A stretch of DNA of 64,000 nucleotides. It comes from Eledone cirrhosa. Its lineage: Eukaryota. The notes under the pieces were generated by a model. It made no database searches, was not told where the DNA came from, and saw only the letters and a program-made list of their open reading frames with translations. Both the position numbers and the translations under genes were made by a program. The first letter of the stretch is position 1. Each line of letters starts with the position of its first letter. Below are positions 2,066 through 6,680 of the stretch, piece after piece. Location of the stretch: assembly GCA_964016885.1 (NCBI GenBank), contig OZ024740.1, forward strand, positions 170,686,001-170,750,000, given 5' to 3'.

Positions 2066-2209
2066 AAGAATGAGAAATAAGTTAGATTGAGGGGACATAT
2101 ATATATATAAGAAGAGCTTAAGTTTAAAACAACAAAAACTTCTCAAATTCTGCCACCATGTAGTAATCCGTTATGGAGGATTTGGTTTCACTTTATTCTT
2201 CATGCTTTG

Positions 2210-2260
<51 letters not shown>

Positions 2261-2271
<11 letters not shown>

Positions 2272-4430
2272 AATATAGACATAGAATATTCGAAAATATT
2301 CTGTATGTTTATAATAAACATTTTGAAGACCTAATCGCTATAGAATAGAATACGTCACGTATTACAATTAGATTCTCGATAAAAGCAAGGGAAGTAATCT
2401 ACGCGTTTCATTCTTATTAGAAATCTTCAGGACTACATATCCAGTGCTTTTATCGAGAATGACACAGCTAGAGACTTATAGAATACTTAGCTGTGTACAT
2501 GAACTGGTTTGAAAGAGCGGTTGCCGGTCCGGCAGAAATTAGAAATTGGAATAAATGCTCTGAAATAGCGATATATATGTGAATATAGACATAGAATATT
2601 CGAAAATATTCTGTATGTTTATAATAAACATTTTGAAGACCTAATCGCTATAGAATAGAATACGTCACGTATTACAATTAGATTCTCGATAAAAGCAAGG
2701 GAAGTAATCTACGCGTTTCATTCTTATTAGAAATCTTCAGGACTACATATCCAGTGCTTTTATCGAGAATGACACAGCTAGAGACTTATAGAATACTTAG
2801 CTGTGTACATGAACTGGTTTGAAAGAGCGGTTGCCGGTCCGGCAGAAATTAGAAATTGGAATAAATGCTCTGAAATAGCGATATATATGTGAATATAGAC
2901 ATAGAATATTCGAAAATATTCTGTATGTTTATAATAAACATTTTGAAGACCTAATCGCTATAGAATAGAATACGTCACGTATTACAATTAGATTCTCGAT
3001 AAAAGCAAGGGAAGTAATCTACGCGTTTCATTCTTATTAGAAATCTTCAGGACTACATATCCAGTGCTTTTATCGAGAATGACACAGCTAGAGACTTATA
3101 GAATACTTAGCTGTGTACATGAACTGGTTTGAAAGAGCGGTTGCCGGTCCGGCAGAAATTAGAAATTGGAATAAATGCTCTGAAATAGCGATATATATGT
3201 GAATATAGACATAGAATATTCGAAAATATTCTGTATGTTTATAATAAACATTTTGAAGACCTAATCGCTATAGAATAGAATACGTCACGTATTACAATTA
3301 GATTCTCGATAAAAGCAAGGGAAGTAATCTACGCGTTTCATTCTTATTAGAAATCTTCAGGACTACATATCCAGTGCTTTTATCGAGAATGACACAGCTA
3401 GAGACTTATAGAATACTTAGCTGTGTACATGAACTGGTTTGAAAGAGCGGTTGCCGGTCCGGCAGAAATTAGAAATTGGAATAAATGCTCTGAAATAGCG
3501 ATATATATGTGAATATAGACATAGAATATTCGAAAATATTCTGTATGTTTATAATAAACATTTTGAAGACCTAATCGCTATAGAATAGAATACGTCACGT
3601 ATTACAATTAGATTCTCGATAAAAGCAAGGGAAGTAATCTACGCGTTTCATTCTTATTAGAAATCTTCAGGACTACATATCCAGTGCTTTTATCGAGAAT
3701 GACACAGCTAGAGACTTATAGAATACTTAGCTGTGTACATGAACTGGTTTGAAAGAGCGGTTGCCGGTCCGGCAGAAATTAGAAATTGGAATAAATGCTC
3801 TGAAATAGCGATATATATGTGAATATAGACATAGAATATTCGAAAATATTCTGTATGTTTATAATAAACATTTTGAAGACCTAATCGCTATAGAATAGAA
3901 TACGTCACGTATTACAATTAGATTCTCGATAAAAGCAAGGGAAGTAATCTACGCGTTTCATTCTTATTAGAAATCTTCAGGACTACATATCCAGTGCTTT
4001 TATCGAGAATGACACAGCTAGAGACTTATAGAATACTTAGCTGTGTACATGAACTGGTTTGAAAGAGCGGTTGCCGGTCCGGCAGAAATTAGAAATTGGA
4101 ATAAATGCTCTGAAATAGCGATATATATGTGAATATAGACATAGAATATTCGAAAATATTCTGTATGTTTATAATAAACATTTTGAAGACCTAATCGCTA
4201 TAGAATAGAATACGTCACGTATTACAATTAGATTCTCGATAAAAGCAAGGGAAGTAATCTACGCGTTTCATTCTTATTAGAAATCTTCAGGACTACATAT
4301 CCAGTGCTTTTATCGAGAATGACACAGCTAGAGACTTATAGAATACTTAGCTGTGTACATGAACTGGTTTGAAAGAGCGGTTGCCGGTCCGGCAGAAATT
4401 AGAAATTGGAATAAATGCTCTGAAATAGCG
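2261..4430 (-). mobile_element. Tandem array of 7 x 310-bp units, each with a minimal type I hammerhead ribozyme (non-LTR retrozyme-like)
   Basis: The unit start GAATATAGACATAG recurs at 2271, 2581, 2891, 3201, 3511, 3821 and 4131. Copies look identical by eye. Flanked by (TA)n, with one HHR motif per unit on the minus strand. Confidence 0.85.
2394..2436 (-). ncRNA. Minimal type I hammerhead ribozyme (first of 7 copies, every 310 bp)
   Basis: Minus strand reads GUAGUC-CUGAAGA-U-UUCU-AAUA-AGAA-U-GAAA-CGCG-UA/GAUUAC. This gives a 6-bp stem I, a complete core, a 4-bp stem II, a palindromic ACGCGU in place of stem III and a GUA cleavage triplet. Stem I is extended by a 16-bp inverted repeat (2372-2387 / 2445-2460). 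Confidence 0.88.
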
Positions 4431-4469
4431 ATATATATGTGAATATATGTGAATATATGTGAATATATG

Positions 4470-4513
<44 letters not shown>

Positions 4514-6680
4514 ATTTGAGAAGTTTTTGTTGTTTTAAACTTAAGCTCTTCTTCGGTAAGATAGAAGAGGGGGGAAGGAATAGAAAAATTACGCACGAGG
4601 CGAGAAAGCGTTTTGGCTAGTCACGCCAAATTAATTGTGATTAATTTCTGTGAACTGAAAACGCTTGGATCCGTCGTTTGTTTACCTTGTTGAATACATA
4701 TCTTACCATACAGTACTGCTTGAATACATAGGAAAAATATATGTTTTTTATTGCTAATATGTAACTACAAGCTGCCATGTGGGACATGTGTCAGTTATCA
4801 TAGCTTCGGGTCGACCCATGACTTTAATTGAAATTGGGTAGACGAAAATTGTTTGGGAGCTTATCAGATGAATTACTATATATGTGCAGCAAAGAGTCAT
4901 ACTTATCATGTTGAATCTCCTTGAGAATTCCATTAAGGCTACATATGTCTGTGTACTTCCTAGCCAATTATATGTTAATCTTTTGACCATCATGTCTCGT
5001 TATTTGAACAACAGTAATACTCATCGACGAAACCAACGGAGGCCCATTGCTTCCAAATATCGTGAGATCAAATAATTCAGAAATGCCATCTGCAAAAGTA
5101 TGGTAGTTCTAAGTTATATTCAATATATGAATCAAACTTGAGGCTTGGACCGAATGTTTTCAACAGGGTGATCTTCACTATGGATACTACGGCTACGGTG
5201 GGGTAGAGGTACAGTGTGACGGATTGTGTCTAACACCCAATTAGGCTAAATCAGAATTTGGTCCTAGAATGTAAGAGGCGGAAGAAACCTTACAAAGCAT
5301 CCCGATCGACATTCTAACGATTCCAACACTACACGGGGAAGATGAATGCAAAATGTAAAGATGTCCACTGCAAGAATTGAAATAAGAACGCAAAAGCCGA
5401 TATAAATGACGTTAGGCATTTCGTTTGACACTCTAACACTTCTACCAATGTACTGCCTCGTAAAGTCGGTGACAATATAACAAAGAGTTATTTTATTATA
5501 TTACTCCCACCGAGGTTGGCTTTGCCTTTCATCCTTACTGGGATCAATAAAATAACGCATCAGTAATGCACTGGGTCGACTTTATCGACTTTCTCCTCCA
5601 CAAAAATGTCTGGCCTTGTGCCTAAACAATTATTTTACTCTTTTAATTGGAGCACCGCCATGATTAAGTTGAAGACATTGATCTCAGTTTTTCTATTTAT
5701 CAAATCTAGTATTTATGTTTTTAATATATGTTTTATCGAACCGCTAAGTTTCAGTACATAAATACAGACACATACACATACGTAGACAAAAATACGGACA
5801 CACTCTCACACATACACACAAACACACACAAATGTAGGCACATAAAAGGGCACGCACGCACATATTCACACATACATATATACACATATATATATATATT
5901 AAGAAAGAGTGATTGAAGTTCAACAACTAATCGTAATCCTAGAGTCGAGCTAAATGTAACAGATTAAAGCTCTGAGGTGGCCATTTGCTAAACATATGCT
6001 ACGCTTGATTAAGAATAACATATGTTGAACAGGAAATTCGATCTCTCATACTTAATATAAACATTCTGCATATTACGCCAATAATATACAGGTGTCTGTA
6101 TTAATCCCCACTTTTAATACTGAATATCAAATTCACGCAAAAGCATTGGATACTAAAATAGGTATCACTATTATTCAACCGATGACTCTAGTTAAAGACT
6201 TTTGTCTAAGATGCCGAACAACGAGATGGGACCCAGAACCATGATGACCCTGCTAACTCCTTAACTACACATCCATTCCGGCGCCTATTATGTTTATTTA
6301 TTAATTCTATATATTTCCGTTTTTCTCATAATGTTAGACACATCAGTCTCTCCATTTTATAGAACTGAATTCTCACTTAGCGACAACTTTCTCACGGATG
6401 GGTATAATCGGCTGTATCGATTTCAGTACCTGATAGATATTTTAAAAATCCCTAGAGGAATGAAAGTACAAGTCAGCACCGTTGGGAATTGGTCTCAACA
6501 GATGGAGTGAGGAGACTGCATAGTGTAAAACATACAACTCGTTTTATTCATTCTACTGTAAATGCTTCCATATGTTAGAAAAAATATTTTTGTTTCATTT
6601 ATATTTCCTAAATTCTCTATTGTAAGGAGCCAAATTCATTATTATATGAAGCTATATACGTAGATTGGCATAACTAAACA

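What the first reader, a model, noticed from the sequence alone, without database searches (positions are those of the whole stretch)
2261..4430. Seven-unit 310-bp 'satellite' is a hammerhead-ribozyme array (non-LTR retrozyme candidate)
Seen: each unit carries, on the minus strand, a full HHR core (CUGAAGA...GAAA...GUA) with stems I and II and a palindromic ACGCGU instead of stem III, at the tip of a hairpin of about 90 nt. Known: metazoan minimal type I HHRs of Penelope-like elements and non-LTR retrozymes look like this, cleave as dimers through the palindrome, and produce small circular RNAs. Inference: transcription gives 310-nt monomers or circRNAs, and seven identical copies reflect one recent rolling reverse transcription of a circle by a Penelope RT.
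Basis: partly seen in the sequence, partly recalled or inferred. Interest (0 to 1): 0.92.

Follow-up and report, generated by a model that had tools for sequence, protein, structure and literature searches.

The report
Young hammerhead retrozyme, Penelope-style insertions
The repeat is one copy of a very young, genome-wide family of small self-cleaving-RNA retroelements (retrozymes, a known class), and the shape of its many insertions suggests that a Penelope-type reverse transcriptase copies a small RNA circle round and round from both ends of a cut in TA-repeat DNA.

Summary
Observation confirmed: 7.05 identical 310-bp units (2261-4447), each with a minus-strand type I hammerhead, palindromic helix III, predicted cut 2400/2399. 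It has an unnoticed U10.1-U11.1 mismatch and no Rfam hit above threshold. The motif is real: 0 of 20,000 shuffles give it, and three older sister families (63-65% identical) keep it through compensatory changes. It is not a lone satellite: 19,121 core copies and 1,030 exact end junctions genome-wide. Insertions sit in (TA)n. Most are two inverted arms with fixed outer ends at two sites about 35 nt apart (17 of 17 two-armed loci in a sample not chosen by its ends), the Penelope 'tail' signature. Each insertion repeats one haplotype in all units and both arms (116 of 116 variants), arms reach 18+ units, and truncations ignore the cut site. Best reading: a non-LTR retrozyme, mobilised by a Neptune-like PLE RT priming on both target strands and rolling round a circle. 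Intact young Neptune-like PLEs exist here, but the partner is unproven. No RNA, cleavage or read evidence was obtained. The class is known; the insertion footprints make a long-hypothesised step testable. Interest 0.62.

The parts
2261..4447 (-). One-armed retrozyme insertion: 7.05 identical 310-bp units; RNA sense is the minus strand, 3' end at the left
   Evidence: polarity from the hammerhead strand and from the fixed outer / variable inner ends at other loci
2216..2260 (.). (TA)n target tract on the left; it runs on into the unit's own (AT)4 at 2261-2268
2261..2275 (-). End site A (unit positions 1-15; mostly joined at position 10 or within 1-8); this insertion's outer end
2272..2315 (-). 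Hairpin just 5' (RNA sense) of site A; a hairpin of different sequence lies at the same place in the sister families
2319..2331 (-). Motif conserved in all four families; role unknown
2372..2460 (-). About 90-nt hairpin (16-bp outer stem) carrying the hammerhead at its tip; repeated every 310 bp
2394..2436 (-). Type I hammerhead: stem I 6 bp, core CUGAAGA, U10.1-U11.1 plus 4-bp stem II, GAAA, palindromic helix III ACGCGU, predicted cleavage between 2400 and 2399 (and every +310)
2515..2533 (-). GC-rich block 3' (RNA sense) of site B, conserved across families; candidate RT-binding element (inference from PMC11167929)
2538..2545 (-). End site B (unit positions 278-285, mostly 285); the other outer end in two-armed insertions, about 35 nt 3' of site A; not used as an end in this window
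4433..4478 (.). 10-bp unit (unit positions 8-17) reiterated about 4.6 times at the 5'-truncation junction
   Evidence: not seen at the ends of the 60 other loci
4473..4509 (.). (AT)n target tract on the right

Best explanation
A non-autonomous, non-coding retroelement of the non-LTR retrozyme class, in a very recent burst. Steps: (1) an array is transcribed on the minus strand (inferred; no promoter found). (2) Neighbouring hammerheads pair through their ACGCGU palindromes into a double hammerhead and cut slowly after GUA, releasing 310-nt monomers and some multimers (structure computed, activity inferred). (3) These are ligated to circles (inferred from published retrozymes). (4) A Neptune-like Penelope RT/GIY-YIG protein supplied in trans cuts (TA)n DNA on both strands and uses both 3' ends as primers on the same template, one at site A and one at site B about 35 nt away (footprints shown; enzyme inferred). 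(5) Each cDNA runs round the circle for 0.2 to more than 18 turns and stops at random phase; the two cDNAs are joined by microhomology, giving two inverted arrays with one haplotype (footprints shown). The window holds the less common outcome in which only the site-A arm remains, seven turns long.
For: Ribozyme: 0 of 20,000 shuffles. Across four families 63-86% identical, core, stems and palindrome covary: C3-G8 to U3-A8; stem II UUCU/AGAA, GCAU/AUGC, GUAC/GUAC, CGC/GCG; helix III palindromes of 6, 10 and 12 nt with different sequence. In the young family the substitutions fixed in stems I and II keep or improve pairing (A-U to G-U twice, G-U to A-U, U-U to A-U) and none hits an invariant core base. 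Unconstrained co-folding of two hairpins gives exactly the swapped double hammerhead, -69.9 against 2 x -31.9 kcal/mol. Mobility: 19,121 exact core copies, control 1; 1,030 exact (TA)n-site B junctions, control 0. PLE footprints: 17 of 20 loci not chosen by their ends are two-armed, all 17 with RNA 3' ends outward and one A plus one B end; 34 of 35 resolved B-anchored loci have a second arm ending at site A; sister family 2 has the same arm order in 20 of 30 loci, 0 reversed. These match the inverted 5'-truncated copy, 30-40-bp tail and (TA)n bias of PLEs (PMC8557442) and two adjacent internal RT start sites with both strands extended (PMC11167929). Periodic template: 22 haplotypes in 40 loci, each fixed through the array; 116 of 116 fixed variants covered in both arms are in both; 24 of 26 loci with two full arms share the major haplotype, against a chance concordance of 0.12 per locus. 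Inner ends ignore the cut site: 2 of 70 near it, 1.8 expected. The arms are separate copies: 32 arm-specific differences against 1 mirrored site in 41,058 in-register bases of 51 loci. Intact young RT + GIY-YIG PLEs are present, end in (TA)n and carry hammerheads with the same U-U and 6-nt palindrome design.
Against: No RNA, cleavage or circle was observed. U10.1-U11.1 and the short helix III predict low activity; only 1 of 9 predicted Xenopus retrozyme dimers cleaved in vitro (10.64898/2026.07.22.740005), and hammerhead cleavage was dispensable for insertion by an anole PLE in vitro (PMC11167929). Absence of fixed core changes in the young family is not significant by itself (about 1 expected among 21 variants). 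Several fixed variants outside the ribozyme break predicted pairs (positions 14, 21, 105, 239, 240). Some loci do not fit a pure monomer circle: L133 has a variant in the first turn of both arms only, L124 changes haplotype after four turns of one arm, and L113, L114 and L137 repeat minor variants irregularly. No autonomous PLE with nucleotide homology to the unit was found among 52 PLE loci; end similarity to two candidates was no better than shuffles (56 and 124 of 500).
Confidence: 0.62

Rival explanations
1. Same element and same PLE-type twin priming, but the template is an uncleaved linear multimer (or cleaved monomers with template jumps); the hammerhead is weak, and circles play little part in transposition.
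For: Uncleaved RNA was the main substrate for an anole PLE in vitro (PMC11167929). L133 and L124 show templates that are not uniform monomers. A linear uncut template also explains the lack of truncations at the cut site.
Against: New variants become fixed through whole arrays of up to 18+ units, in many lineages (22 haplotypes in 40 loci), while single-unit variants stay rare (about 4 per 10,000 bases). That needs a recurrent one-unit bottleneck followed by multiplication. The ribozyme is conserved with compensatory changes across four families.
Confidence: 0.2
2. One priming only (site B); the second, inverted arm is a DNA fold-back copy of the first cDNA and is closed on the other flank by AT microhomology at site A (related to the self-priming model in PMC3846280).
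For: Explains the shared haplotype, the one mirrored variant (L133) and the (AT)4 tract at site A. A few junctions are symmetric (L039, L040, L105).
Against: 32 arm-specific differences against 1 mirrored site, although many of these could be later mutations or assembly errors. The A arm is often much longer than the B arm (12.5 against 2.2 units in L120). One-armed insertions with only an A end exist (this window, L027). Both strands were extended in vitro (PMC11167929).
Confidence: 0.1
3. An ordinary satellite: a monomer was inserted and then amplified locally at the DNA level (unequal exchange or extrachromosomal DNA circles); the hammerhead is a passenger.
For: Local amplification is discussed for retrozymes in 10.64898/2026.07.22.740005. 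Irregular repeats of minor variants in long arms suggest some later exchange.
Against: Does not explain two inverted arms with fixed 3' ends at A and B, random-phase inner ends, uniform orientation or (TA)n targeting.
Confidence: 0.05
4. The seven-fold array at this locus is an assembly artefact of fewer real units.
For: Units are 100% identical and flanked by microsatellites; reads were not examined.
Against: Hundreds of arrays of differing fractional length with locus-specific haplotypes in the same assembly; unique flanks on both sides; only 2.2 kb long.
Confidence: 0.03

Closest known systems
Non-LTR retrozymes of animals (PMC7229834; 10.64898/2026.07.22.740005), especially the dimer-dependent axolotl type
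   Same: Tandem units of about 300 bp, low GC, no ORF, a type I hammerhead in every unit, short palindromic helix III, many dispersed loci, co-occurrence with PLEs.
   Different: Two inverted multi-unit arms, two fixed priming sites and (TA)n targeting are not mentioned in the parts of those papers that I read (0 hits for 'inverted' or 'microsatellite' in PMC7229834). U10.1-U11.1. No pLTR homologue found here, whereas 24 of 57 Xenopus families had a TE match. RNA not tested here.
Penelope-like elements, Neptune/Naiad type insertions (PMC8557442, PMC11167929, PMC3846280)
   Same: Inverted 5'-truncated partner copy, 30-40-nt tail at one end only, (TA)n targets, type I hammerhead upstream of the RT start sites.
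   Different: No RT or endonuclease; the whole element is one 310-nt period repeated up to 18+ times per arm.
Minimal hammerheads of PLE pLTRs (PMC4209133)
   Same: Predicted to work as dimers; U3-A8 variant seen in sister families; palindromic positions 15.2-16.2.
   Different: Helix I is 6 bp and helix II 4 bp with a 4-nt palindromic insert, i.e. the canonical metazoan design rather than the minimal one with 7-8-bp helix II.

Membership tests
Non-LTR retrozyme | Short tandem repeat of 150-450 bp, GC under 50% | tested here: met
   310 bp, 33.5% GC
Non-LTR retrozyme | Type I hammerhead in at least two consecutive units | tested here: met
   7 of 7 units
Non-LTR retrozyme | Non-coding, no LTR pair around an internal region | tested here: met
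   longest stop-free frame 59 aa; pure tandem array; PBS/PPT not searched for separately
Non-LTR retrozyme | Dispersed as many genomic copies | tested here: met
   19,121 core copies; 1,030 end junctions
Non-LTR retrozyme | Target-site duplication, when present longer than 4 bp | tested here: inconclusive
   flanks are (TA)n tracts, so a duplication cannot be delimited
Non-LTR retrozyme | Expressed as linear and circular RNA; self-cleaves | not testable with these tools
   needs RNA and bench data
Type I hammerhead ribozyme | Core C3 U4 G5 A6 N7 G8 A9, G12 A13 A14, A15.1-U16.1, H17 | tested here: met
Type I hammerhead ribozyme | Helix I about 6 bp, helix II about 4 bp, short palindromic helix III able to dimerise | tested here: met
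   definition from PMC4209133
Type I hammerhead ribozyme | Paired 10.1-11.1 | tested here: not met
   U-U here; a known natural variant and the best-tolerated mispair (PMC3088659); A-U in 8 of 40 loci, G-C in family 4
Type I hammerhead ribozyme | Covariation of stems among relatives | tested here: met
   four families
Type I hammerhead ribozyme | Score above an Rfam hammerhead gathering threshold | tested here: not met
   none; HH9 17 bits against 52, E 0.31
PLE-mobilised element | Inverted, 5'-truncated second arm with 3' ends outward | tested here: met
   17 of 17 two-armed loci; 36 of 40 B-anchored loci show a second inverted arm; the window's own copy is one-armed
PLE-mobilised element | 30-40-nt tail at one end only (two RT start sites) | tested here: met
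   A and B ends 26-45 nt apart, mode 35, always one of each
PLE-mobilised element | (TA)n target preference | tested here: met
PLE-mobilised element | Sequence homology to the pLTR of an autonomous PLE | tested here: inconclusive
   none in 52 PLE loci, a small sample of 10,596 GIY-YIG candidates
Autonomous PLE | Own RT plus GIY-YIG ORF | tested here: not met
Minimal PLE hammerhead (min-HHR) | Long helix II (7-8 bp), short helix I, little or no helix III | tested here: not met
   against PMC4209133
Classical satellite DNA | Head-to-tail arrays grown in place, without transposition-type ends | tested here: not met

The most novel reading that the evidence does not exclude
These arrays are a direct genomic record of target-primed rolling-circle reverse transcription: one (probably dimeric) Neptune RT complex primes from both ends of a cut in (TA)n at two fixed sites on a single ribozyme-made 310-nt RNA circle and rolls up to 18+ turns from each. 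The system is active now, with a young intact Neptune family in the same genome as driver. This would show that circles are the transposition intermediate of animal retrozymes, and would explain the tandem/inverted pLTR and tail structure of Penelope elements as twin priming rather than fold-back.
Probability: 0.45. Interest if true: 0.82.

Novelty: new member of a known kind. Interest (0 to 1): 0.62.

Why it matters
That retrozyme circles are copied by Penelope RTs into tandem arrays has been a hypothesis (PMC7229834, PMC4209133); a 2026 preprint adds co-occurrence and pLTR homology but says the mechanism remains open. PLE insertion itself (tandem/inverted copies, tail) is described as unresolved (PMC8557442, PMC11167929). 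A family this young, with over a thousand near-error-free insertions carrying private haplotype marks, lets each insertion be read as an experiment on template shape, priming sites and number of primings. It also offers a 310-nt RNA and intact candidate RTs for reconstitution. About 5.9 Mb (0.2%) of this genome is this one ribozyme repeat (19,121 x 310).

Tried and rejected
Rfam: nothing at gathering level, weak HH9 only. Plus-strand hammerhead: none. Pol III A/B boxes by simple consensus: none on either strand. Sequencing runs: six holders in four studies, no RNA holder listed; this is no evidence on expression. Search for the autonomous partner: 50 GIY-YIG loci and two copies of the youngest family show no nucleotide homology beyond chance; 15 loci picked by the conserved A-B motif were all further retrozymes; 30 family-3 loci were inspected for long frames without finding a PLE. 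An apparent match in register between the unit's A/B ends and those of the L171 PLE (38-nt spacing) was not significant (56 of 500 shuffles) and that family looks older. Enrichment of truncations at the ribozyme cut: none. Telomerase-like reiteration as a regular feature: the 10-bp repeat at this locus was not seen at the ends of the 60 other loci. Selection on the core within the young family alone: too few variants. The energy values of the first dimer model were invalid through a pairing slip and were redone. Earlier scan findings: none. In one search, 8 of 59 loci were skipped because an end was missing or not recognised.

Full report
OBSERVATION. The window holds an exact 310-bp tandem array from 2261 to 4447: seven units with no mismatch plus 17 nt, between a (TA)n tract on the left and a short 10-bp reiteration and (AT)n on the right. 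On the minus strand each unit has a type I hammerhead: 6-bp stem I, core CUGAAGA, stem II, GAAA, the palindrome ACGCGU, A17, and a predicted cut between 2400 and 2399, at the tip of a hairpin closed by 16 perfect pairs. My descriptor found it in 0 of 20,000 shuffles at the real stringency and 4 of 20,000 loosely.

IS THE RIBOZYME REAL? Three older sister families turned up beside fetched loci; my labels are families 2-4. They are 63-65% identical to the 310-bp unit and 72-86% to each other, and keep the same layout. Their hammerheads covary: C3-G8 in the 310 family and family 3, U3-A8 in families 2 and 4; stem II changes on both sides; helix III is a perfect or one-off palindrome in nearly all distinct motifs although its sequence and length (6-12 nt) differ. 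U3-A8 is a known natural covariant (PMC4209133, parts 1-2 of 4 read; PMC3088659, passages), and U10.1-U11.1 is a known natural variant and the best-tolerated mispair (PMC3088659, passages). Within the young family, fixed changes in stems I and II keep or improve pairing and none touches an invariant base, but 21 variants are too few for that alone to count, and several variants outside the ribozyme break predicted pairs. As a monomer helix III is unfavourable (-25.2 against -30.4 kcal/mol without it); two hairpins co-fold, unconstrained, into the swapped double hammerhead (-69.9 against 2 x -31.9). This is computation; activity is unshown, and only 1 of 9 predicted Xenopus dimers cleaved (10.64898/2026.07.22.740005, parts 1-3 of 5 read, supplements not seen).

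IT IS A MOBILE FAMILY. The own genome (3.0 Gb; an animal, whose repeat landscape I recall as octopod-like, not tested) has 19,121 exact copies of a 15-nt core word (control 1) and 1,030 exact junctions between (TA)n and one particular unit position (control 0). Units 100% identical to the window's lie on at least nine contigs. Single-unit variants occur at about 4 per 10,000 bases in 112,580 array bases, so the burst is very recent.

SHAPE OF THE INSERTIONS. Of 20 loci taken, chosen by identity and not by ends, 17 consist of two inverted arrays, 2 are one-armed and 1 runs into a gap. In all 17 the RNA 3' ends point outward, one outer end is at unit positions 1-15 (site A) and the other at 278-285 (site B), never A/A or B/B (chance about 1 in 130,000 if each end chose freely), and both abut TA repeats (short in L036). 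Of the first 40 of the 1,030 B junctions, 34 have a second arm ending at site A, 2 more have a second arm whose end was not reached, 2 ran off the fetched stretch, 1 hit a gap and 1 is one-armed. Family 2 shows the same arm order in 20 of 30 loci, 9 one-armed, 1 mixed, none reversed. A and B are typically 35 nt apart. An inverted 5'-truncated copy, a 30-40-bp tail at one end and (TA)n targets are the described marks of Penelope-like elements (PMC8557442, PMC3846280, passages), and an anole PLE in vitro cuts AT-rich DNA, extends both strands and starts at two adjacent internal sites that bound the tail (PMC11167929, parts 1-2 of 4 read). The window's copy is one of the few one-armed insertions, starting at site A.

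SHAPE OF THE TEMPLATE. The 40 loci carry 22 haplotypes, each repeated in essentially every unit. All 116 fixed variants covered in both arms are in both; 24 of 26 loci with two full arms share the major haplotype against 0.12 expected per locus, the exceptions being L124 and a single-coverage site in L128. Arms run from 0.2 to more than 18 units. Inner ends are spread round the unit; 2 of 70 fall near the ribozyme cut, 1.8 expected, so the template has no free 5' end there. Compared in register from their outer ends, the arms differ at 32 sites and mirror a minor variant at 1 (41,058 bases, 51 of 59 loci), which favours two separate cDNAs over a fold-back copy, with the caveat that later mutation and assembly error add unmirrored differences. 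New variants fixed across long arrays require a one-unit bottleneck followed by multiplication; rolling on a monomer circle is the simplest route. Against a pure monomer model: L133 (variant in the first turn of both arms), L124 (haplotype switch after four turns) and irregular repeats in L113, L114 and L137, which point to occasional multimeric templates, template switches or later exchange.

THE PARTNER. A GIY-YIG search (10,596 candidates, 150 scored) gave several RT + C-terminal GIY-YIG families; a CxxxxCxxC linker before the endonuclease fits Neptune as described in PMC8557442. They end in (TA)n with two alternative ends. One (L174/L206/L207) has dozens of copies with equal scores and open frames, in tandem and inverted pairs (two copies 99.2-99.8% identical), and a pLTR hammerhead with the same CUGAAGA, U-U and 6-nt palindrome design. 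A second (L172) is nearly as young; a third (L171) has a matching 38-nt end spacing but is older. None shows nucleotide homology to the unit beyond chance. The driver is therefore inferred as a class, not identified.

MECHANISM AND CONFIDENCE. Shown: array, motif, covariation, dispersal, end architecture, haplotype pattern. Inferred: transcription, dimeric cleavage, ligation, the circle, the enzyme. I put the retrozyme/PLE-mobilised call at about 0.9 and the full model with a circular template and twin priming at 0.62; linear multimer or jumping template 0.2; fold-back second arm 0.1; DNA-level satellite 0.05; artefact 0.03.

COMPARISON AND NOVELTY. It meets every testable feature of non-LTR retrozymes (PMC7229834: abstract, passages and Discussion read, supplements not seen, and its Supplementary Figure S9 model may bear on insertion structure; PMC7761336, passages). 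That class, its dimer-type hammerheads and the PLE hypothesis are published, so this is a new member of a known kind. I did not find the two-armed, two-site, haplotype-marked architecture described for retrozymes, nor a cephalopod example, in searches; the library lacks most subscription papers. What lifts the interest is that the family makes a long-standing hypothesis testable in genome data and at the bench. Interest 0.62.

Noticed in passing
window 2110-2149 and 4513-4552: A perfect 40-bp inverted repeat flanks the array and its TA tracts; probably an older two-armed element into whose TA tract the array inserted.
   Followed up: no
window + 15414, + 50618, + 51130, - 50286, - 61907, - 61579, - 60867, - 15786, - 56845, - 2061 (first base of core): Ten further hammerhead-like motifs of at least five other families, several with palindromic helix III or U3-A8; some in tandem or inverted pairs.
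   Followed up: partly
L207:1106-4767 (minus); also L206, L174, L172, L179, L180, L177, L183: Neptune-like PLE families have a split ORF (476 + 775 codons stop to stop in L207) with a U UUU UUA heptamer about 2,300 nt before the end of ORF2, in -1 register in the intact copies, at the same place in three families: likely a programmed frameshift. A frameshifted ORF1 is noted for PLEs in the Fig. 1 legend of PMC8557442.
   Followed up: partly
L124 (G000:C1:61292900-61298900): One arm switches haplotype after four turns to that of the other arm: possibly two RNA templates in one insertion complex.
   Followed up: partly
L101, L109, L134, L140: Two different one-base insertions fixed 2-3 nt from the predicted cut/ligation site, in stem I; may mark ligation or junction errors.
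   Followed up: no
L180:7500-7720, L189, L176, left flank of L029: Another short two-armed hammerhead family in (TA)n with the same U-U and UUCU/AGAA stem II but a full 4-bp helix III and a tail of about 68 nt.
   Followed up: no
window 22294-45774: Several broken LINE-type elements (APE endonuclease and RT domains), unrelated to the array.
   Followed up: no
   Followed up: no
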